Shown here: positions 1,585-49,478 of the stretch, piece after piece
Layout: each line of letters begins with the position of its first letter
How positions within the stretch are numbered: the stretch's first letter is position 1
Source of the DNA: Ophelia neglecta
Taxonomy: Eukaryota
Length of the DNA: 64,000 nucleotides
Direction: 5' to 3'
Assembly: GCA_965285935.1 (NCBI GenBank)
Contig: OZ260663.1
Coordinates: forward strand, 78,926,001 to 78,990,000
Notes under the pieces: generated by a model
Told to the model about the DNA's origin: nothing
The model's input: the letters and a program-made list of their open reading frames with translations, nothing else
Database searches by the model: none
Translations under genes and position numbers: made by a program

Positions 1585-3291
1585 GCTGCTGTCGATAATT
1601 TAATTGAAAGTTAAAGACTCCCATTTTTCACATTGAACCAGTATATAATCAGGTTTCGCGTTAAACCCCTAAATATTGTTCGACTCGTGGTCCTTTTGAT
1701 TAAAAATTTGCACTTTCAACTGATATTTACAAACTTGGAGCCATGGCAAACTTGAAACCAAGCAGACATTTCAATTCATGCTTAAACAATTCATGATAAA
1801 TTTCGTTTAATAATTACAAGCCAATTCATTATTTTTTCCTGTACGCATCGAAACAGCGGTTAGAAGGTGCTTTTGCGTGCGACTTCGACTCGTGGTCACT
1901 GTAACATATACCAACAGCTCTCTTTAATAAATTTAATTATTATCTTTAATTTTTGTGTCAAAACAATGCAAAACCATAAGTTGGGACTCACTTGTAGCAA
2001 ATACTAGTGTGTAATATGCCGCTACATGGATGTTATTATTCAGATTAGACAATTTAAGAAAAGTAATTCCCTAAATAAATGCTTGTAGTTTTCGGTAAGA
2101 CATAACATGTTTACTTGCAACTTGAAAAGAATGGCCGCAAGGAACGTGAAACATTTATATTTGTACAATATTTAGTTCTAAACTTTTTTCTCAAAATATT
2201 TAACTGGTTTTGTCAGTGCATTCTTATTAATACATGCATTGACGTCTGAGCTTATGAAGGTATAATTTGACAGGAAACAGCTGTTGGCATAATGGAGTCA
2301 ATTTTTATAGTTACTATTGACATTTTGCCATATGAATCATGTTTCTACTACGCTAAACACGGACGGCAACAAAGATGCGCTCTCTAAGAACACTCCCTAT
2401 ACCGATCTTAAGGCTCTTGAGCAGGGTATGTCTCTAGTGAATAGGCACAACATAATCAGTTTATCCACACAGTGAGGTTAGTATGGCTGTTCGCGTGAAT
2501 AATACCCCCATCAATGTGCTCCATATCATCAGATTTTGCATACAATTATATAATAATCAATACTGCCTTCGAAGCCAGTTTTTAAGAAGAAAATAACCAT
2601 CTGTATTGGTCGGCATCATTCACTAATGCATACGACATTAAAACGCTTAATATTGGTTAGAAAGCCGTATGGGGAGTTGTTTTTAATCTGTTTGGATGGA
2701 GAAAATGGGATTTTGGATGTTTTGTGTGCATGTTCGCAAACGTTGTTTGCACAAGTGTATATCAAGTCGGCACCAGTGTGAAGCAATGTAGTTAATATTA
2801 ACCTTGGTGAAAAGCTCGGCATTTGGGAACTAACAACACTTGTTCCTGTGTGACAAGTCTCTTAACTCCAGTAGTTGGGCCTCATTAGGTGCAGCGGGGA
2901 CAATGTATAACATATAAAACGTATTGAAAAATGGTTTATCACCGCGGCTAACCTTCGTAGATTTTACCATTTTTATACTGGTTCAGGTGTATAAAATTAT
3001 TTGATCCCCCGGATGTTAAGTCCCCCGGAGTCCAAACCCTAGGATAATAAGACCCCGGAGACGTAATATACCAGGGTTTTCTTGGGACCAGCGGACGTAT
3101 CAAACCAAGATTTTGAAACCGGATGGCAATATAATAGAATTTCTTGACCGACGGACTAAAAACACTACAATGTCTCAAGACCGGGAGATTCACGAGTTGT
3201 GATAAGGGATAGTAAATGTAGTTCGGGCCAATTGCAAATAACCTGAAAGTTTGGGGTTATGTATCGAAATGTATTGTCATTGTTCTCTTTG

Positions 3292-3720: not shown

Positions 3721-4515
3721 GCCAATTTAGGCTTGGAAATCACTTTTTCATCAATTTTGAAAAAAAGAAACGGTGGGCTATTCAATTTAACGATATAATC
3801 AGACGATAGGGCAATGTTTCTGGTACATATTAACGCTGCACTGACTGATTTAATTTGAGCCTAAGGTAAAATCCCTGTGTCTGGGTCCACCTTGTACCGA
3901 GACTGGACTTTTTTCAATGTATTATAACATGTGGCACTTGTTTGATGCCATCTCTTACACCCATTTTGTGATACATACATATACACCAAGGATGGCTTTT
4001 GCATATGAAAAGGGGCCTTTTTCTAAACCATTGACAAAGTGTAACATATTGTCAGTGCTTAGGGATTACGTTAAACAGAGTCACACATTTTGAAAATTTC
4101 CAAACCCTCCAGTCTTTCGCAATTGGAATATATATACACCACTATATGACAAAATAAGCACAATGACTATATATCTATATGGCACAGCACACAGGCTAGT
4201 CATATCGTGTATATATATAATTTATATCATACAGCTATAAATGAGCCACAAGGATGCTATATTTATCTTAATACAAGGAACTTTATATATAATACCAAAT
4301 ATAATTTTCACTGATAAATAAAGTAAAACGATGCCGGACATGCTTCGTTTGCCACAAGGGATTTGTTTTACAAAGCGGGAGTTTTATTTATCAATATAGA
4401 TAGTGAAAATAAGTAAGCAACCGATTGAGAATACTGTCGTCAGTTCTATTTGAGTTCCTATCACACCCTTCCTAAACCTCGCATTCGTACATAAAAATAG
4501 TCTTACATTATTCTA

Positions 4516-6060: not shown

Positions 6061-9000
6061 CTAGGTCTTGTTGTAATTGTATAGAATGTCATTCGTAACA
6101 TAGTTCCTAAGTGCATACCAACACTTTGCACCAACTTTAAAGAATTCATGCCTGTCAATTTCAGAAAGACTAATACCACTGAAAAACTCACAAATAAAAT
6201 CCTCATCGTTCATCATAAAGAGTTTAGTTGAGATCAATGGATGGAGTTTGTCGATTAGCTCCTCCCAGTAGACATCTCTCCTTGTAGAGAAATGCTGGCA
6301 TTCACATACGAGATGGAGAGCACAATCGCGGTAAGAGGAGACACAGTAAGGGCAACTGCGGACAATACCGGTATTTCTCGTGGCCAGTTTCACGAGGAAA
6401 GCAAAGTGTGGCTGGAGTCCACAAGACGTTTTTGCTACCTTCCAAATTTCACACGGCTCGAGGATAAACGGATGGAAAGCACGGAAGGCTATGTAGTCCG
6501 GGTTACCGAGCATTGTGCGAAGTGTCTCTGCCTGGACATAGTCAGCTAGGTGCTCTCTAACCGCGATTTTCCATGTAGAACGGCCGCACCAAACCCCTTG
6601 TTCAAGATAAACAACCAACTTGTCCATTAGGTTTATTCTGTCTAGAAGTGGCAGCAGCTCAGAGCAGTAACCTCTGTGACTTCCAGTAACCTTGAGTGCA
6701 AAATGATGAATACGTAGCCTGAGCAGACGCGAAGGGAGAGCAAGCGGGGGTAGTCGTAATATGGTGGCCAGAAACTGAAGGCGTCTCCTGTCAACCTCGA
6801 CTGCTATGTTACTCATGCCCACAAGTGAAGTTACCTTAGCAGAGTGGCAACGAACTGGCAAATTTTGAATGACTTTTAGACAAAATCGATGAGCAGTTTC
6901 GAGAATGACCGATTCTTTCTTTGAAACACACGTCCAGAGTTCACTGCCGTAGAGAGCCTTGGGAAGGACGACGGATCGGTATAACTTTATAGAGGTTAAT
7001 GGAGTGAGTCCTTCCGGGTGGGTACCTATTCCCACCAGACCAGCCACTTGAGAGCGAAGGGCGTTAGCGGCAGTGTTAGCGCGGTCGTCGGACGTACGCG
7101 AACACATCTTTATCCCGACGTGCGTCGCCTCCCTTACAGGTCGGATAAAGGAATCTCCCATTTTCCAGACTAGGTTATGAGGGTGGTCTGATCGACGAGG
7201 CTTCGGTTCGAACACTAGTATTTTAGTTTTGGAAGCATTGAATTTGAATCGCCAGAGTTTACTATAGTCATAACACATATCCAGCATCCTCTGTAGAGCG
7301 CGAGGAGTAAGGGAGATCAACGCGATGTCGTCCGCCTGTAGGATTGCGCCGCAGAACAAGCCGTTGATAAAGACGCCATTTCCAGTTTCCCTTATTGATT
7401 TTGGTAGCTCGTCGATAAACGCACTGTATAACTGGGGTCCTAGAACACTACCCTGCCTCACGGACTGGCGTATTGCGAATTGTTCTGAAAATGAGCCATC
7501 GTACAACACTACTGCCCACATGTCTGTGTAGGCATTGAGGAGTAACAGCCACAGTCGTCCGCAAATCCCGATGCCGTGGAGTTTCACCAGCAGGCCGTTG
7601 GACCAGACGCAGTCAAAAGCCGTGGCGCTGTCCAAAAGGCACAAATAAATTGTCGAGCCCCGCTCGTTAGCCCAGTGAATGGATTCTTGGACGATGAATG
7701 AAGACATAAGGGAACTCCTCCCTTTTCTGAAGCCGTTTTGGACTTCATCGGGAAAGTTCAGGCTGCGGCCTACTGGGGTAAGCAGCCAGTTGTCCCATCG
7801 TCGAAGCAGTATGCGTTCCCACACCTTATAAAGGACGGGAAGTAGGGAAATCCCCCTGTAATTTTTGCGGTCGTCATTATATTTATTTGCACCCTTATGA
7901 AGGGGTATAATAACTCCCTGCTTCATGTCCTTTGGCACATGACAAATATCGTACATTGCGTTGTAAAGCTTTGCCAATTTTGCCAGTAGAAAGCGGCCGC
8001 CGAATTTTACATGTTCATATACAATTGAGTCTGCTCCTCCACTTTTACCGTATTTTGTTCCGTCAATCGCATTTTGAACTTCTGAGCCGGTAATGGGAGT
8101 ATCCATTATCGGGTCCTCCTCAATAGCTGCCCTGACCTTAATTTCCGCCAACTTTTGTTCAACGTCTGCCCTCTGCTGAACGTCGAATTCGGGATCTATA
8201 AGAAAGTCAAACAGCTTGCTAAAGTGTTCCGCCCATACCATCCTTACGGCCTCGGGGTCTCTCACAATACGATTTTCTATACAGAGTTCGTGGACTTTAA
8301 GCTTGTTTTTGTTGCGCCTGCAGTTAATAAGTCTCCATAGTTGTTCCTGATCATGCTCGGCCGCTTCGTCCACCTCGTGATAAAAGTCGGCTTCCATGGC
8401 AGCGATAAGTCGTCTCTGTACGGCTCGAAAACTCCTTTTGGCTTCTTTATAGTCACAGAATGACTTGTGCTGACGACCCCTGGGCCGACCTTGATGTAGC
8501 CACGTCAGCCGCAGGTTTTTCATGTTGTCATGGAGATGATTTAGGTCCTGCTTTTTCCAGTATGGTTTTATATGAGGAAAAAATTGCTTCACTGGGATGT
8601 GTTTTACCGCACAACTCTGGAGGCAGTCGACCATGGCGGAGTACTCACGGTCGATGGCTCTCTTGCTATCCATGACGGACTCAGGTAAGCTGTTCAGGGT
8701 CTGAGTCAGTTCGTTCTCATACGCCAGCGTGAGTTGAGAACGCACAGCTTTCCGCCAGTTGAGTGACTTCGTGATATTTTTGGGTTTCTTGGTGGACTTC
8801 ACCAAGGGTTTCACGGCCAGGGTCACACAAACTGGCAGGTGATCGGACACGTTGAGATGGTGATCATCAATAATACAAGATTCTGTAATAGTGTCTGATA
8901 AGCGTTGCCGACTGATAATGTGATCGATAAGTGTACGGGGTCCATCCTGATAGGGTTCCCTTGTGTATGGTGGACCAATACATCCGCACTGTACCATCCA

Positions 9001-9693
9001 CGAAACAAGATCCCGTGACCGTAACAGGTAGTCAGCGGCCTCCCGTCTTTTCCGCAATATATATGACTCTATATGACAGGCGAAGCGGTCACCGCTTATG
9101 TTCGAGTTGAAGTCGCCCATTAAGATTACCTCGTGGTTTGAGGAGTAGTAATCATAGAGAGCCTCTACTTCGTTGAGAACACACAAGAAAGGTTCGACGC
9201 CTTGATCCGAGGAGGGGAGATATACACCAATCAGGACTAAGTCCAGTGGATAGGTAAGTTTTATTATTTGTATTCTGTCATGGTCGTGAGGAATGTCTCT
9301 GAGGTGCGCTGTGAGATGGTTTCTCCACAAAAAGGCTGTTCCTCCCATGTATCGTTTACCTGGGCGGCTGGGATCTAAACCTTCGTTACGCCGGTCAAAT
9401 TTGCCCTTGCTGTCGTAGTCATTGTGAATTTGATTCAGAACTTCGCTCATACTTTCGCGTAGCCAGTGTTCTGAGAGAAACAGAATGTCCGGTTTTAAAA
9501 CTTTCAGTAGGTGGTTCGTATAAGTCATGCTGCGGAGGAGACCCTGGCAGTTATAGGCTGCCAAAATTAGCTTATTGTTTAAAGCCATCGTAAGTCCATT
9601 GACCGCTCGCATTGTCATTACGTCGTTGGTGGTTCCTCGCTGTTCCGCGCTCAATCCAAAGTCTGCAATAAGCACTACCAGGCCAAAAGTCAT
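6061..9693 (-). CDS. LINE ORF2: AP endonuclease + reverse transcriptase + C-terminal CCHC zinc finger
   Basis: 1210-aa uninterrupted ORF. APE motifs YNCQG, LSEHW, GDFNS, IDHI, SDHLPV; RT motifs NYRGISLL, QNGFRKGRS, AFDCV, VRQGSVLGP, QADD; C-terminal CPYC...HLVCEC. The true start may be the ATG at 9588 (MALNNKLILAAYN). Confidence 0.95.
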   Translation of the reverse strand: MTFGLVVLIADFGLSAEQRGTTNDVMTMRAVNGLTMALNNKLILAAYNCQGLLRSMTYTNHLLKVLKPDILFLSEHWLRESMSEVLNQIHNDYDSKGKFDRRNEGLDPSRPGKRYMGGTAFLWRNHLTAHLRDIPHDHDRIQIIKLTYPLDLVLIGVYLPSSDQGVEPFLCVLNEVEALYDYYSSNHEVILMGDFNSNISGDRFACHIESYILRKRREAADYLLRSRDLVSWMVQCGCIGPPYTREPYQDGPRTLIDHIISRQRLSDTITESCIIDDHHLNVSDHLPVCVTLAVKPLVKSTKKPKNITKSLNWRKAVRSQLTLAYENELTQTLNSLPESVMDSKRAIDREYSAMVDCLQSCAVKHIPVKQFFPHIKPYWKKQDLNHLHDNMKNLRLTWLHQGRPRGRQHKSFCDYKEAKRSFRAVQRRLIAAMEADFYHEVDEAAEHDQEQLWRLINCRRNKNKLKVHELCIENRIVRDPEAVRMVWAEHFSKLFDFLIDPEFDVQQRADVEQKLAEIKVRAAIEEDPIMDTPITGSEVQNAIDGTKYGKSGGADSIVYEHVKFGGRFLLAKLAKLYNAMYDICHVPKDMKQGVIIPLHKGANKYNDDRKNYRGISLLPVLYKVWERILLRRWDNWLLTPVGRSLNFPDEVQNGFRKGRSSLMSSFIVQESIHWANERGSTIYLCLLDSATAFDCVWSNGLLVKLHGIGICGRLWLLLLNAYTDMWAVVLYDGSFSEQFAIRQSVRQGSVLGPQLYSAFIDELPKSIRETGNGVFINGLFCGAILQADDIALISLTPRALQRMLDMCYDYSKLWRFKFNASKTKILVFEPKPRRSDHPHNLVWKMGDSFIRPVREATHVGIKMCSRTSDDRANTAANALRSQVAGLVGIGTHPEGLTPLTSIKLYRSVVLPKALYGSELWTCVSKKESVILETAHRFCLKVIQNLPVRCHSAKVTSLVGMSNIAVEVDRRRLQFLATILRLPPLALPSRLLRLRIHHFALKVTGSHRGYCSELLPLLDRINLMDKLVVYLEQGVWCGRSTWKIAVREHLADYVQAETLRTMLGNPDYIAFRAFHPFILEPCEIWKVAKTSCGLQPHFAFLVKLATRNTGIVRSCPYCVSSYRDCALHLVCECQHFSTRRDVYWEELIDKLHPLISTKLFMMNDEDFICEFFSGISLSEIDRHEFFKVGAKCWYALRNYVTNDILYNYNKT

Positions 9694-9873
9694 CTCTGGT
9701 CATCTCCTCAACAGCTTCAGGTAGAGCCTCAATAATGGCCGCATAGCCACTTGAACACTTACTTTTTATAACTCTTACTTCTCCGACTGTTCCTATGTTT
9801 TTCCTTCGTATATGATCGCTGATGACTGTTGGATTTGCTTTATCAGTCAAGTTGCCTAGGAACAATTTCACTA
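9572..9873 (-). CDS. LINE ORF1 C-terminal fragment (truncated at the insertion junction)
   Basis: Open frame KLFLGNL...DDFWPGSAYCRLW with an RRM-like start and an FWP..C..W motif; overlaps the ORF2 start and ends at the TSD. Confidence 0.7.
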
Positions 9874-34300: not shown

Positions 34301-36478
34301 CTGCACTCTGTGGCAAATATGCAAAAAGCCACAATGACAATGTACTGTGGTTTGAAAAACCTAGTTATATTTTAATCTTTAATCTCTGGCTCCAAAGAAA
34401 CACAAATCTTAGCTGCTATATATAGTAGCTATCTAGTTGCTAGCACTTTCAATTGTCATCATTAGAGAGTTTTGGGCCAAATCTCAGTCTTGTATGACCT
34501 AAATGCGAAAAGCACAGATACTTTAGATGGCTATCATGTTATATACTACCCATCCTAGGGACTGATGATAAAATAAAAGGGTTTAATCGTCCAGCACTAT
34601 GTTATATAAGAAAAGCTGCTACCAATGCTTACCCTTACAACTGCCAAAGTGAAGAAAAAATTCCAGTGGACACCATACTCGGAAACATGCTCTTGATAAT
34701 CTGTGCTTTTGACAGCTGCCATTCTAGCAAATCCCAGAATCCACAAAGGCATTGTCGATGAAATCGACTTAAACACTGCTATCATTTTGGAGCTAAAACA
34801 TCTGGAGGTGAAAGACTGCAGTAAAATATCACCATAAGCCTTGGGAAATTACATTTTTACCAAATACCTGTTGTTTTTAGTTTAGATTGAGCTACATATC
34901 TAAAAAAAAATTACATTTATATGACCTTGTATACCTGTAGTGACAAATTCTTTACTGTCACAAGATATGAATTCTGCATTTCAGAAATGGCACAAAATCC
35001 TTTTATTTAGATAATCTATGATAATTAAAAGCACAAAATTTATGCCAAACAAATGATGTAAATATTGCAGTCATTGTGAACAATTTTGATGACCAAAAAT
35101 CATACTCTGTTTACTGTAAAAGTTTCCTCAATTTTTCTTTGAACAATTTCACAAATTAAAGTGTCCTTAACAACATGTACAGTGAATCATTTTTGTTCAG
35201 TATCTTAGTTTTAACTCATTTCATTCTTCTGGGATTCTCTCATAGCTGTCCCTTATCAAGAGATGTCCCCAATGTAAACTATAAAACTGATTTTACAAAC
35301 TAAAAATTCCCATGGGACTGTATAGTTAAGTTCATGAATATGTACCTTGTCTGTTCATGTTTTCCTCTGGCTTCAGGGGACACAATGGCATTGGAAATAA
35401 CAAATGCACCAACACCCACATCCATCAAACCAGTGCCAAATGTCTCGGCTTTAGCATATCTTCTCGGGAATATCACAAAATCTACAGCTAAAATTGATAT
35501 GGCAGTGGCAATGTTCACATATGCTCTAAATGCAGAAATGAATGGTTGCTTTCCAGAGACTTCAATATTTTTTATACTTTTCCATGTTACTGGCTGGTCA
35601 TTTTGAAGTATTAGACTGGAGACCTTTTCACTAAAGAGCATCACAGCAAAAATAGTAAACCCAAGGGCTGAGTAAACTCCTTCTAAATGGGAAGACATCA
35701 CAGTGAAGCCACACAATACTGGCATGATGAGGAATAGAAAGTCAATAATAAATTTGTACCTGAAAAGAAATTAACAAACTTCTCAATCATGTTTTGGAGT
35801 CTTAAATAGTGGAATAAAGACAAATAATTGTTAAGCAGATTACCTATTGCCATTAGGCAAGTCTGCCATATATACTGGGTTCCAAATTACCCCCCCCCCC
35901 CCCCCCAACATTGACTTGTCCACCCGCAACATATTATCATATCCTTATGAGCCACTCCACTTCTGCTCGTTTCTTTCTAAACAAATGTCTTCCCCCCACT
36001 ATGGTCCAAAATGAAAGCTATGGGAAAAAACTCAGTTGTTCCTGGATGACCAATGAGAAAACAGCCTGCATGAGTATTCAAATTGCAAAAGTTTTCTTTG
36101 AAAACATACGTTTACACAATCTTATATTTAAATGAAGGGGGCACATAATATCGCTAGGGAGTGTGATCCATGCAAACATTGGTGCATGTACCCATGTAGG
36201 ACCCTGTAGGCTTACAGCCAGGCTGTAGTTTTATAACAGTTTAATAACAGCTCCCATTGAAATATTTACAGAACCTCTATTATCGCTTGAATATGTGTAA
36301 ACTAAATAACTTACCTCGGCGCCGGATGACGGCCTTTGTAAACCCATGACATAAAAACATTCTTCAGTAGTACACAGGCCGGTGCAATAGACACAACCAG
36401 TGCTATTTCCAACACTGAAGTGCCTTGATGGTTGCTCACAAATTTCTCTTTTAGATCTTTGTAGCTGTCAGACGACAT
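31382..36478 (-). CDS. PIGW: Phosphatidylinositol-glycan biosynthesis class W protein (GPI inositol acyltransferase, GWT1 family), ~486 aa
   Basis: Exons 36478-36315, 35759-35346, 34801-34633, 33004-32754, 32311-32170, 31839-31752, 31614-31382; all GT-AG and phase-compatible (1461 nt). Motifs [97 protein letters not shown]. Confidence 0.95.
33433..33588. mobile_element. MITE (TA TSD), family B, in PIGW intron 3
   Basis: TA-CAGTGGAACCCCT.ATGAA.GACC...GGTCTTTCATCAGGGGTTCCACTG-TA. Confidence 0.8.
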
Positions 36479-44637: not shown

Positions 44638-46990
44638 CTATTTCACTTCAGCCTTTGATGCCTCATCAAAATTTTCAACTAAGTCTGAAAGTAGAAAAAA
44701 TTATAATAGCCACAATTCTTATATGAATATGCTCTGGAGTAGTTTCCTTTCAAACAAGGTTACCATAAACAAGGACATTTTTCATATACAGGAACATCCA
44801 AAAGTACTTTCAAACTTAACATACTGGTCACAGGACATTTCCTAGCAGAGAAATGCTAGAAACTGATTTTCCATGGAAAGTATGGTAATGTAGGGAACCT
44901 CATACAGACAAGTTTTGCAACTTTGTCATTTTCATGCTTGTGAACATTCCTGATTAACAGAGGCCACCAGAAAAGATCTATCAGCTTTAAAAGTGTAGTT
45001 TAAAGAATCATACCGGGGACCTCGTCATCCTCCTCGTCGATTTCTTCGGTAGCTGGTTTCAGACTCTCGCCGATACCTAAGTGGGAGAAGTTTGTTTTAT
45101 AATAAAGAACACATCCTGAACAATTCTTTGTTTAGATCAGAAAACACAGATGGTTGTTTCCACACAAACTTGCCATTCACTGAAATCTCAGACAAGAACA
45201 TTGGTGAAAACAATTATTTTCAAACTTGTATCTTTGTAAATCTACTCCCAGGCAAATTTGAGTTCCTCTCGGCAACTTTTTGCGACTTTCCTTGAGTGCT
45301 TTAATGGTTATGTTTTCGCACTGGACTAAATTTGTCCTTGGCGGAAAAGACACTCCATGTGTCTTTAAACTTTGTGGCAAGAGATCTGCAGGGCCTACAT
45401 ATACATATGGATACAATATTCGCCCGTTTAATTTCATGGCCACCAGAATTTCTTGAAATTCAGGGATTTAAAACCCACAAACATTTTTACTTGGACAGTA
45501 TGGTTTCTCTCTCTTCTTTCTACACTGGTTTACATTTTTGGCAATGCAATATAAAGAAATGCCTATATCAGATCTGTTGAGCTTTAACTAACAATCATGT
45601 GCTATCAAAGTTATTAACAGTGTCATCACTTAAGGCATTTTATCAGAAATCTAAACAAAAAATTAACATCACCAGCTCCATAAATACATACCACTGCTAG
45701 ATACAGTTGTTGCAAGTTTCTTGAGGTTAGATAAGCTCTCTGCCCCAAGCTGGTTCAGTATACCGGGGAGCATTTCAGTAATTTCTGGAAAAAATTTAAA
45801 TGCCAGAGTTAAAACTTAATGTGTTACTAAAACATCAAAGTAAAATTAACTGCCCCATCCCATTTTCAAAATACCAGTTTATCCTTCAACAGCATGTTTC
45901 ATAGCCCTTACGTTTGTTTTCTGCATGCCCAGTGACTGCAAATGTGTTTGCAGCTAGGGAAGCCTGGACTTTGGGGTTGTTAAAGTGTATCACTTGACCG
46001 TCTTCTTTAATCATATTCACCTGTAAAAAAAGAACACAATCATAGTCGAGAGACAAAGCTGAGCATTTGTGATTTTTCTGCATGACTGAACCTGTTCAAA
46101 TAACTCACCAGCTTTTTGTCACAGGTAGAGGCATTTATGAGAAACTCATGTTCCTCCTGGCAGTATCCCCAAAAGTTTATTTTTAATCTTAATAATTTAT
46201 TATATGGCATGTAGCGTTTTGAGGAGTCATTTCTAATACCACCTAAGATGCCACCTTTTTCCTTCAGATCTGTTGAGCTTTATGTGAAATATCATAATTG
46301 TGTCAATCAAAGAATTGATCATCATGGGAAATTGGCATTATTTATTAACAAAAAGCAAAAATAAATTGGCCACAATATTAACAGCTTTCATGATTTATCC
46401 AGAGTTGCAACCAAGTCTTATCATCAAAAGAAATCAATTGGCTCCACACAGAGTTTTGGTACTAGGGTGCTGCAGCATAATGACACCACCTAGTTGTGAA
46501 GGTTTCATAAAAGCTTCTGAAGTAACATTGCCAAGGGAAATATTTGGAACAGAATGTTTTTTTAAATATCAAAACAACCTACCTCCTCTATGCCAGGGAT
46601 ATTATTGACAGCAAGCTTTTTCAAAGAACTCTGGAGCTTTTTGTCATCTGTGGTGGCAGTTCTATGTACAACCTTCTTTTTTCTCCTTGCAGTACCCTAC
46701 AAAATGCATTTTTGAATCATTGTGTGTATTTGCAGAAAGTTATCCGATATGATACTTCAAACTATTTTAGATGCCACATTTTTTCTTCAGATCTGTTGAG
46801 CTTTATATGAAATATCACAGTTATATCAATCAATGTATAGATCATCACAAGGGCATATCTATAAAAAAGGGCCACAATATATTCCATTAATGTTCCAACA
46901 ATAAAGTTTAGCTGTGCAAAATGAAACATAAATTACCTTTCCACCAATTCGCACTTGAGCCTGAAGCAGTTTTAACTTTTCAGCATTCAT
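44638..46990 (-). CDS. BTF3L4: Transcription factor BTF3 homolog 4 / nascent polypeptide-associated complex beta subunit, 159 aa
   Basis: Exons 46990-46937, 46696-46583, 46020-45912, 45784-45692, 45076-45014, 44684-44638 (480 nt). [90 protein letters not shown]...[13 protein letters not shown]...[15 protein letters not shown]. Confidence 0.97.
45568..45629 (-). ncRNA. Box C/D snoRNA, copy 1 (BTF3L4 coding intron 4)
   Basis: GTGATGA(C)-CACTGTTAATAACT-TTGA(D')-...ATGATTG(C')-...AAAGCTCAACAGAT-CTGA(D); 8-bp flanking stem AAATGCCT/AGGCATTT. Confidence 0.85.
46264..46325 (-). ncRNA. Box C/D snoRNA, copy 2 (BTF3L4 coding intron 2)
   Basis: ATGATGA-TCAATTCTTTGA-TTGA-...ATGATAT-...AAAGCTCAACAGAT-CTGA; flanking ATGCCA/TGGCAT complementarity. 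Confidence 0.87.
46787..46848 (-). ncRNA. Box C/D snoRNA, copy 3 (BTF3L4 coding intron 1)
   Basis: GTGATGA-TCTATACATTGA-TTGA-...GTGATAT-...AAAGCTCAACAGAT-CTGA; the D box is ~90 nt upstream of the 3' splice site, a typical spacing. Confidence 0.87.
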
Positions 46991-47262: not shown

Positions 47263-47323
47263 TCAGATCTGTTGAGCTTTATGAGAAATTTCACAGTTTA
47301 TCAATAAAAGAATAGATCATCAT
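47263..47323 (-). ncRNA. Box C/D snoRNA, copy 4 (BTF3L4 5' non-coding region)
   Basis: ATGATGA-TCTATTCTTTTA-TTGA-...GTGAAAT-...AAAGCTCAACAGAT-CTGA; terminal stem TTTCT/AGAAA. Confidence 0.85.
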
Positions 47324-47839: not shown

Positions 47840-47988
47840 TAATTGTGACTGCCAGCGTTTGGCAGTTCAGCCGTAATCTTTATAAAAAAGATTGCCCCAA
47901 ACAAGTCACTGTCACAAGTAGGCACTGTGGCGATATGACCGATCAGTGTCGAAAGCCACGTAAAAACCCCAAACAACAACAACAACCT
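47840..47988 (+). mobile_element. Probable SINE 3' part
   Basis: Ends ...GTGTCGAAAGCCACGTAAAAACCCCAA(ACA)4, a tail structure typical of invertebrate SINEs; no head region identified. Confidence 0.45.
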
Positions 47989-48222: not shown

Positions 48223-48283
48223 TCAGATCTGTTGAGCTTTATGTGAAATTTCACAGTTAATCAATTTAAGAATAGATCATCAT
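48223..48283 (-). ncRNA. Box C/D snoRNA, copy 5 (BTF3L4 5' non-coding region)
   Basis: ATGATGA-TCTATTCTTAAA-TTGA-...GTGAAAT-...AAAGCTCAACAGAT-CTGA; terminal stem ATTTCT/AGAAAT. Confidence 0.85.
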
Positions 48284-49417
48284 TAGAAATAAAGTACAGA
48301 AAAAACAACAAAAGAACAAAAAAGAGAAACTTTCCAAGCAAGAGAGTTGATGGACCTTTACTCCTTTCTATATGGACGTTTCCATGCTTTTATCTTGATT
48401 TTACATACTCTCCAACTGCAACACTGATGCAAGTCAGATCCTATTACACACTACTTGCCTGAAAATTACTACTTATCAACATGTTTTTTAACATAACCAA
48501 AGTGATAATAATAGGTATAACATAAGGGTGTATGCTCTTCCTTAGTGTGTTTCGCAAGGGCGCCAGTGGCAGGCTGCTAATTATTGGTATCGGGCCACTG
48601 AAGAACAGGGTTGGCATTCTTCCGGGAAGATAGGTATTTCTTCCCTTCCCTGGGAACTTTTTGAAAAATCAAATTACGTTTAATTGTTTACAATATCTTA
48701 TACTTATTTCAATTACCAACATACATACAATTTTATATTAGAAGACATATTTCACTAGAGCCAGTTATCACAGTAGTTATCAAAAAGTGGGCTAATTCAA
48801 AATCGTCATTTATAAAGCCATGATCACAAATGGAGCTTGTTTTTTCTTCATTTTTTTTTGCAATCTTGTTTTCTTACTTGACAGATATTAACAGTATTAG
48901 ATCTTCGCTTATTTTGCAAAAAACTGTTTATATAACATAATTATAGCCACTCTTTTAAGTCCAAATAAGGCTTTGTGTCAACTTTGTAATAAATACAAAG
49001 TCATACACTTTTGTTTTCAGTTGGCAGACAGAATGTTATTTTATAAAAGCCCATCTAAATTGTGGGTTAGGCAATTCTGCAGCTTATTAGCAGGTTTGTG
49101 AACAAAGTTATCAAATTGTAAATGTCAAAATTTGACAACTATATATAGGGAAAAAAAAACCCCATAGAAGTTTGAAAAAATTGCGTCTCCTGAGAAAGCT
49201 CTCCAGATAGTAGCACTCTTCCAGGCGGACAGCACTATAGGGGCTCTTGTCTATTCCATTTTCATTACAGATCCGTAAGTACTGCTAATAAAAATTACAT
49301 TTTGATTCACTTGGGAGTTGATTGGAATATGACTTTGGCAAAGTAAACCTTCCAAAATTGGTAAAATTAGGTTGATCAGACATGATGTGACATGCCTATA
49401 AATTGTGTGCATTTTCT

Positions 49418-49478
49418 TCAGATCTGTTGAGCTTTGTTTGAAATTTCACAGTTTATCAATCAAAGAATAGATCATCAT
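49418..49478 (-). ncRNA. Box C/D snoRNA, copy 6 (BTF3L4 5' non-coding region)
   Basis: ATGATGA-TCTATTCTTTGA-TTGA-...GTGAAAT-...AAAGCTCAACAGAT-CTGA; terminal stem TTTCT/AGAAA. Confidence 0.85.

What the first reader, a model, noticed from the sequence alone, without database searches (positions are those of the whole stretch)
46787..46804. Invariant guide predicts 2'-O-methylation of a G beside the 28S peptidyl-transferase loop
The guide AAGCUCAACAG (positions 3-13 upstream of box D) is an 11-bp perfect complement to the conserved eukaryotic LSU sequence GAAGACC-CUGUUGAGCUU-GACUCU. By the D+5 rule the fifth nucleotide (C) pairs with the G of CCCU-G-UUGAG. By my hand numbering this is about E. 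coli 23S G2067 / yeast 25S G2409. I do not recall this as a human or budding-yeast Nm site and recall it from plants and trypanosomatids, which needs verification. If so, it is an ancient modification retained in this animal with six guide copies. Caveat: the two bases next to box D do not pair.
Basis: partly seen in the sequence, partly recalled or inferred. Interest (0 to 1): 0.7.

Follow-up and report, generated by a model that had tools for sequence, protein, structure and literature searches.

The report
Animal guide for plant-type rRNA methylation
Six copies of a small nucleolar RNA in the BTF3 gene of this invertebrate (likely an annelid) match its large ribosomal RNA and are predicted to methylate a G that carries a measured methyl mark in plants and trypanosomes but not in the human, frog, fish, fly or yeast maps, and the same guide occurs in water fleas and other invertebrates.

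Summary
46787-46804 (minus strand) is box D plus the guide of one of six box C/D snoRNA copies in a BTF3 (NAC-beta) gene. The guide pairs 11 of 11 bases with this genome's own 28S rRNA. The D+5 base is G2679, which equals yeast G2409 and human G3913 (28 of 29 anchors). No better target was found in 18S, 5.8S, spacers, U2 or U6. The site is measured in Arabidopsis (Gm2410, lost in a SnoR29 mutant), tomato, tobacco, Leishmania and T. brucei; the trypanosomatid guides use the same box-D register. It is missing from the human, Xenopus, zebrafish, Drosophila, yeast and Dictyostelium lists. A metagenome scan found the same guide in 61 loci, 30 of them sense to BTF3, RPL12 or eIF4G (Daphnia) exons; positions left free in the search mostly pair with the rRNA, which supports target and register. 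No Rfam family covers it. Methylation and expression are unmeasured here. Verdict: an ordinary mechanism and a known site, but apparently the first animal guide family for it; ancient retention with repeated loss is likely, convergence is not excluded.

The parts
46787..46848 (-). Box C/D snoRNA copy 4 (box C 46848-46842, box D 46790-46787), in the intron after the first coding exon of BTF3, 90 nt from the 3' splice site
46793..46803 (-). Guide, positions 3-13 upstream of box D; the C at 46795 (D+5) pairs with G2679 of the own 28S rRNA
49418..49478 (-). snoRNA copy 1, upstream of the first coding exon (likely a 5'-UTR intron)
   Evidence: intron status inferred
48223..48283 (-). snoRNA copy 2, upstream of the first coding exon (likely a 5'-UTR intron)
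   Evidence: intron status inferred
47263..47323 (-). snoRNA copy 3, about 250 nt upstream of the acceptor of the first coding exon
46264..46325 (-). snoRNA copy 5, intron after the second coding exon
45568..45629 (-). snoRNA copy 6, the divergent copy, intron after the fourth coding exon; keeps boxes and guide
44638..46990 (-). Host gene BTF3 / NAC-beta, six coding exons (46990-46937, 46696-46583, 46020-45912, 45784-45692, 45076-45014, 44684-44638), 159 aa, GT-AG introns
   Evidence: Pfam NAC PF01849 on two exons; 78-87% identical to seven named BTF3 proteins

Best explanation
These are six box C/D snoRNA genes inside a BTF3 gene whose box-D guide pairs over 11 bases with this animal's 28S rRNA and is predicted to direct fibrillarin to 2'-O-methylate G2679 (yeast G2409, human G3913). 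By the established pathway they would be cut out of the introns of the host transcript, fold a kink-turn from boxes C and D, load the core proteins and pair with pre-rRNA before the target helix closes; G2679 pairs with C3091 in the helix next to the peptidyl-transferase loop (pairing computed; the name helix 74 is recalled). The two bases beside box D likely pair inside the snoRNA with the end of box C instead. The same modification is measured in plants and trypanosomatids, and the guide is likely an old one kept in several protostome lineages and lost in vertebrates, flies and budding yeast.
For: Shown: canonical boxes in 6 of 6 copies, sense to the host; guide invariant while the rest diverges; best duplex -18.3 kcal/mol against -11.3 for the next site in 18S, 5.8S, 28S, U2 and U6; register 28 of 29 anchors. 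Homologues: 61 metagenome loci, with BTF3 exons in 4, RPL12 in 21, eIF4G in 5, all sense to the snoRNA. Positions left free in the search pair with the rRNA: G at D-2 in 38 of 42 unique box-C-bearing sequences (8 of 11 clusters) against 4 of the 14 other matches; C at D-14 in 33 of 42. Measured elsewhere: Arabidopsis G2410 score 0.96-0.98 in wild type, 0.05-0.08 in the SnoR29.2 mutant (PMC8053127 Table S4); Leishmania LSU 655 by mass spectrometry, cryo-EM and RibOxi-seq and T. brucei 673 by RibOxi-seq, guided by LM27Cs1C3 / TB11Cs4C3 with the same box-D guide, two bases before CUGA (PMC13487219 supplementary file 11). Arabidopsis guides that start pairing only at position 4 are assigned to measured sites.
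Against: No methylation or expression data exist here for this animal. Position 2 is an A-C mismatch; in zebrafish such mismatches are 'rarely tolerated' (PMC7668251). In copies 1-5 the bases after box C can pair with positions 2-3 (2-4 in copies 1-4) and would compete with the target. The homologues are not independent: 18 and 12 of the 42 sequences fall in two clusters, and a few in the set look like chance matches. An 11-nt guide to a conserved rRNA stretch can arise more than once, and the bodies of the animal, plant and trypanosomatid RNAs were not shown to align.
Confidence: 0.85

Rival explanations
1. The guide also, or instead, methylates the neighbouring U2680 (yeast U2410, the D+6 base).
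For: Arabidopsis SnoR29 methylates both G2410 and U2411 (PMC8053127). Neurospora CD20 and S. pombe snR88 are listed for the equivalent U (PMC2780460 Table 1; equivalence inferred from the offsets). No separate guide for that U was found in this genome: 0 of 5 matches to the shifted pattern have a box C upstream.
Against: The validated +5/+6 double cases in that paper all use D' guides; this is a box-D guide. The Leishmania box-D guide is listed for 655 (and 657 by RibOxi-seq only), not 656; T. brucei lists 672 and 673.
Confidence: 0.15
2. The RNAs pair with the 28S but do not methylate it (a folding chaperone or a weakened guide), because of the mismatch at position 2 and the extended internal stem.
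For: A-C mismatch at position 2 in 6 of 6 copies; competing pairing with the box C tail in 5 of 6. Yeast snR190 is listed only as 'predicted' for the G 14 nt upstream; that it acts as a chaperone is recalled.
Against: The exact two-base spacing to box D is kept in all six copies, and homologues with that spacing mostly pair at position 2; a chaperone would not need it. The spacing matches guides whose methylation is measured. The plant Rfam consensus also shows an A at that position if its box D' is read for the G.
Confidence: 0.08
3. The real target is another RNA that pairs with all 14 invariant bases, or U2 snRNA G43 through positions 1-7.
For: Positions 1, 2 and 14 are invariant in the six copies. 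U2 offers 7 contiguous pairs. Eight other exact 14-mer matches exist in the genome.
Against: U2 duplex -8.9 kcal/mol against -18.3. Eight matches in 762 Mb is near the roughly six expected at random (arithmetic); 6 of the 8 were fetched and none has an Rfam hit. Homologues do not keep those three bases and pair with the 28S there. U1, U4, U5, 5S, tRNAs and mRNAs were not scanned as such.
Confidence: 0.03
4. The target is right, but the animal guide arose independently in protostomes (convergence) and is not inherited from the eukaryotic ancestor.
For: Plants use a D' guide on a longer double-guide RNA; animals and trypanosomatids use a D guide. No Rfam family links them at the gathering score. 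Six of the six non-plant, non-trypanosomatid maps consulted lack the site. All animal loci that could be placed look protostome.
Against: The site occurs in land plants and trypanosomatids (measured), a green alga (predicted) and animals (predicted), three distant branches. Loss and host switching of snoRNAs are common (PMC3511168; PMC6984369).
Confidence: 0.25

Closest known systems
Trypanosomatid LM27Cs1C3 / LD27Cs1C3 / TB11Cs4C3 (guide for LSU Gm655 in Leishmania, 673 in T. brucei)
   Same: Box-D guide, same rRNA stretch, same two-base spacing to CUGA, so the same D+5 G (PMC13487219 supplementary file 11; offsets 641/655/667 match yeast 2395/2409/2421).
   Different: One guide base differs (the trypanosomatid rRNA is presumed to differ there), position 2 pairs, the RNAs are 88-101 nt against 61-62 nt box to box here, and no likeness of the bodies is evident by eye. 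Cluster-encoded, not intronic (recalled).
Arabidopsis SnoR29 (older names include SnoR87); Rfam RF00360 snoZ107_R87 is likely this family
   Same: Guides the same G (Gm2410), validated by a T-DNA mutant (PMC8053127). The RF00360 consensus carries the same antisense element.
   Different: Uses a D' guide next to a degenerate box, also guides G2392 and U2411, model 117 nt. Animal homologues score 22-26 bits against a cut-off of 50; the window copies are not hit at E up to 10. The link RF00360 = SnoR29 is inferred from the guides and from the shared names in one table row.
Neurospora CD20 / S. pombe snR88 (26S Um2372)
   Same: Box-D guide (CD20) to the same stretch.
   Different: Aimed one base 3', at the U; target predicted in that paper.
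Vertebrate SNORD12 (Gm3899) and SNORD52 (Um3925)
   Same: Intronic box C/D guides for the flanking sites, 14 nt upstream and 12 nt downstream.
   Different: Different guides and sites; no vertebrate site is listed at 3913.

Membership tests
Box C/D methylation-guide snoRNA | Box C RUGAUGA near the 5' end and box D CUGA near the 3' end | tested here: met
   6 of 6 copies, 61-62 nt box to box
Box C/D methylation-guide snoRNA | Flanking inverted repeats that bring boxes C and D together | tested here: met
   Short complementary flanks read by eye in 6 of 6 copies, some offset from the boxes; not scored against a control
Box C/D methylation-guide snoRNA | At least 9-10 contiguous pairs with the target, covering the fifth base upstream of box D or D' | tested here: met
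   11 Watson-Crick pairs, positions 3-13, own 28S 2677-2687
Box C/D methylation-guide snoRNA | Pairing from position 2 upstream of box D | tested here: not met
   A-C mismatch in 6 of 6 copies; common but not obligatory; met in 38 of 42 homologous sequences
Box C/D methylation-guide snoRNA | Sense position in an intron of a broadly expressed host (animals) | tested here: met
   Copies 4-6 lie between BTF3 coding exons with GT-AG ends; copies 1-3 lie upstream of the first coding exon and their intron status is inferred
Box C/D methylation-guide snoRNA | Internal C'/D' boxes with a second guide | tested here: inconclusive
   Degenerate D'- and C'-like words are visible; no conserved rRNA complement before D'
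Box C/D methylation-guide snoRNA | Expressed as a stable small RNA bound by fibrillarin, and the target is methylated | not testable with these tools
   Needs small-RNA and RiboMeth-seq data
Plant SnoR29 / Rfam RF00360 | Same antisense element and target G | tested here: met
Plant SnoR29 / Rfam RF00360 | Score at or above the gathering cut-off; guide at D' with a second guide at D | tested here: not met
   No hit in the window; homologues 22-26 bits against 50; the guide is at box D. It works like SnoR29 but is not filed as a member.
Trypanosomatid TB11Cs4C3 / LM27Cs1C3 | Box-D guide with the same target and register | tested here: met
Trypanosomatid TB11Cs4C3 / LM27Cs1C3 | Common descent (alignable body outside boxes and guide) | not tested
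   Compared by eye only; the published sequences were not aligned

The most novel reading that the evidence does not exclude
A ribose methylation beside the peptidyl-transferase centre that dates from the last eukaryotic common ancestor survives across protostome animals (annelids, crustaceans) through an undescribed snoRNA family that has moved between BTF3, RPL12, eIF4G and non-coding hosts, and was lost separately in vertebrates, flies, budding yeast and Dictyostelium, the very models used to define the animal set; a site tabulated as plant-only among those models would belong to the ancestral set.
Probability: 0.6. Interest if true: 0.55.

Novelty: new member of a known kind. Interest (0 to 1): 0.42.

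Why it matters
Lists of conserved rRNA methylations are built from a few models, and in them this site counts as plant-only. An animal guide, kept in six copies here and present in Daphnia, would add a site to the ancestral set and show repeated loss at a helix next to the catalytic centre. It gives a cheap test: map it in Daphnia or an annelid, or express the guide in yeast or human cells, whose rRNA is listed as unmethylated there. The mechanism itself is ordinary, so the interest is for rRNA-modification and snoRNA-evolution specialists.

Tried and rejected
Rfam: no family at gathering score in the window; E-value scan gave only generic C/D hits whose guides do not match. Other copies in the genome: the guide-plus-box-D pattern has 8 matches, the six copies and two without box C, rejected; a sequence model found only the six in the window. 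A second guide before D': not conserved. A longer 14-nt target and U2/U6 targets: rejected. A mitochondrial rRNA match: a loose motif scan of the mitochondrial contig found none. Expression: no RNA holder listed; the three runs found are contigs of one sample with no splice joints, they cover all 30 bins of the region and say nothing on expression. Planarian map: its listed 28S sites stop at position 1600, so it is uninformative for this site (PMC11649923 section 10). Trichoplax and Ostreococcus papers: passages gave nothing on the site. Nematodes remain unchecked: the paper sought is not held and a search found no map. Earlier scan notes by sequence and by place: none. The reading that plant Gm2410 is an orphan site (PMC8583080, PMC11542601) was dropped after PMC8053127 showed SnoR29 guides it. 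snOPY, snoDB and MODOMICS could not be consulted.

Full report
What is there. The stretch 46787-46804 read on the minus strand is box D (CUGA) and the 14 bases before it. It is the 3' end of one of six box C/D snoRNA copies at 49478-49418, 48283-48223, 47323-47263, 46848-46787, 46325-46264 and 45629-45568. The 11-mer occurs exactly six times in the window; with one mismatch allowed there are 9 matches against 1.45 expected. All six have RUGAUGA and CUGA 61-62 nt apart. Box D and the 14 bases before it are invariant, while the internal part is 0.73-0.89 alike among copies 1-5 and 0.38-0.46 for copy 6, the level of unrelated flanks. So selection acts on boxes and guide. Genome-wide the guide-plus-box-D pattern has 8 matches: these six and two without box C.

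Host gene. The copies lie sense to a BTF3 / NAC-beta gene: six coding exons with GT-AG ends give 159 residues, two exons hit Pfam NAC. Copies 4, 5 and 6 are in coding introns, one each. Copies 1-3 lie upstream of the first coding exon; that they sit in 5'-UTR introns is inferred. The mitochondrial contig reads best with table 5, its gene blocks resemble the annelid order (signature recalled), and the closest of seven named BTF3 proteins is from Capitella, 87% (the seven were chosen by a search with another locus, so this is a limited panel). The animal is likely an annelid.

Target. The genome holds 267 matches to the rRNA motif, largely in arrays. Three units were fetched and delimited with Rfam; all three have the target at 28S 2677-2687. 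Positions 3-13 of the guide make 11 Watson-Crick pairs; position 5 pairs with G2679. This is the best duplex in 18S, 5.8S, 28S and spacers for 6 of 6 copies. With D+5 enforced, the next best are 8 pairs in 18S (with wobble pairs counted) and 7 in U2. Duplex energy is -18.3 kcal/mol against -11.3 for the runner-up. 13 of 5000 shuffled guides reach 11 pairs. One offset fits 28 of 29 nucleotide identities at sites listed in PMC11014333 Table S4 (next best 17), so G2679 is yeast 2409, human 3913, fly 2788, Arabidopsis 2410. Bases 2675-2680 pair with 3090-3095, G2679 with C3091. That this is helix 74 beside the peptidyl-transferase loop, and E. coli G2067, is recalled.

The caveat of the two unpaired bases. 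Position 1 can pair with the last A of box C in 6 of 6 copies, and position 2 with the next base in 5 of 6. In zebrafish, mismatches at position 2 are rarely tolerated (PMC7668251 section 8), which counts against full activity. In Arabidopsis two guides assigned to measured sites start pairing only at position 4 (PMC8053127). A 14-nt alternative target has 8 matches outside the copies, near chance; 6 of the 8 were fetched and have no Rfam hit.

Homologues. One scan of the metagenome collection with box C, guide and box D, leaving the two bases before box D and everything upstream of the guide free, gave 61 loci with 69 matches; 55 have RTGATGA at the right distance, 42 unique sequences. G at D-2, which pairs with the rRNA, is found in 38 of 42 (8 of 11 sequence clusters) against 4 of the 14 remaining matches; C at D-14, which also pairs, in 33 of 42. 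The sequences are not independent (clusters of 18 and 12) and a few look like chance hits. Host exons lie sense to the snoRNA in 30 of 61 loci: BTF3 in 4, RPL12 in 21, eIF4G in 5, two of which come from one contig. An eIF4G exon of L059 is 100% identical to Daphnia pulex eIF4G. The BTF3 loci are closest to annelid proteins among those named and carry copies in several introns, two of them the introns of copies 4 and 5. L038 has the same A at positions 2 and 14 as the window and sits beside a SNORD12. No control pattern could be run on the collection.

What is known. PMC11014333 (section 19 and Table S4 rows 112-177 read) lists the site for Arabidopsis only among fly, human, yeast, Xenopus, Arabidopsis and Dictyostelium. 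PMC8817022 Table 1 has no Dictyostelium site there. The zebrafish list goes from G3878 to U3904 in the older numbering, without G3892 (PMC7668251 Table S2). PMC11542601 Table 2 (passages) gives Gm2412 in tomato and tobacco from cryo-EM and a predicted Gm2252 in Ostreococcus. PMC8583080 (passages) found no guide, but PMC8053127 (passages and supplement rows) assigns the D' guide of SnoR29 and shows the score fall from 0.96-0.98 to 0.05-0.08 in the mutant; U2411 falls too. PMC13487219 supplementary file 11 (parts 1-2 of 7) lists Leishmania LSU 655 as positive by mass spectrometry, cryo-EM and RibOxi-seq and T. brucei 673 by RibOxi-seq, with box-D guides of the same spacing. PMC2780460 Table 1 (passage) has fungal guides for the next U. 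Rfam has no family for the animal RNA; the plant family RF00360 carries the same antisense element but scores 22-26 bits against 50.

Novelty. Ten searches of the held library (titles and abstract starts seen unless named above) showed no animal guide or animal methylation at this site and no snoRNA in BTF3. The library lacks most subscription papers; nematode catalogues, snOPY, snoDB and MODOMICS were not seen, and unread supplements of PMC6984369, PMC7671301 and PMC3511168 (passages only) may bear on this.

How it likely works. Shown: boxes, guide conservation, pairing, register, host position, homologues. From established box C/D biology: release from spliced introns, kink-turn assembly, fibrillarin methylating the base paired to position 5. 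Inferred: expression, actual methylation of G2679, and descent from an ancestral guide. I put 0.85 on methylation of G2679, 0.15 on an added or shifted methyl at U2680, 0.08 on pairing without methylation, 0.03 on another target, and 0.25 on convergent origin; these are not all exclusive.

Verdict. It is a new member of a known kind: a standard guide for a site known from plants and trypanosomatids, apparently not reported from animals, and spread more widely in invertebrates than this one genome. Interest 0.42.

Noticed in passing
window 42879-42817 (-): Lone C/D-like element with a 4-5 bp terminal stem, 1.8 kb past the BTF3 stop; it has an 11-nt complement to own 28S 2989-2999 that does not abut a D or D' box. 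Probably chance.
   Followed up: partly
window 6061-9699 (-): Open frame of 1212 aa with endonuclease and reverse transcriptase domains, a LINE-type retrotransposon.
   Followed up: partly
window 35300-35770 (-): Exon of a GWT1 / PIG-W gene.
   Followed up: no
window 47906-47986 and about 48604-48683: Short high-copy repeats upstream of the BTF3 coding exons; contig depth in those bins is thousands of times the surroundings for the first and about a hundred times for the second. The first looks like a SINE tail (recalled).
   Followed up: no
window about 50045-50020 (-): Pyrimidine tract followed by GCCATC, like a TOP-type start of the BTF3 transcript; copies 1-3 also share a similar block about 60-130 nt downstream, as from segmental duplication (read by eye).
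   Followed up: no
L031:1113-3521: Three copies of this snoRNA lie between the same two BTF3 coding exons, against the usual one per intron unless small exons were missed.
   Followed up: no
L038:476-1607: Homologue in a cluster with SNORD12 (above cut-off) and SNORA13-like and SNORA48-like elements, no protein host detected; SNORD12 targets the G 14 nt upstream of this site.
   Followed up: partly
L063:2160-2239 (-): Weak match (32 bits, cut-off 43) to Drosophila snoMe28S-Cm3227 with the guide conserved; that site is listed as fly-only, so other arthropods may have it.
   Followed up: no
L087-L088 (G000:C223): Mitochondrial genome with genes on both strands: nad1-nad3-nad2-cox1-nad4L-nad4 on one, cox2-atp8-cox3-nad6-cob-nad5 on the other; atp6 was not recognised among frames of 90 aa or more.
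   Followed up: partly
G000:C2 957804-979933 and 2036287-2038531: Tandem repeat with a 39-nt period that contains the 11-nt target word.
   Followed up: no
literature: A 2021 map and a 2024 review still mark Arabidopsis Gm2410 as lacking a guide, while another 2021 paper validated SnoR29 for it.
   Followed up: yes
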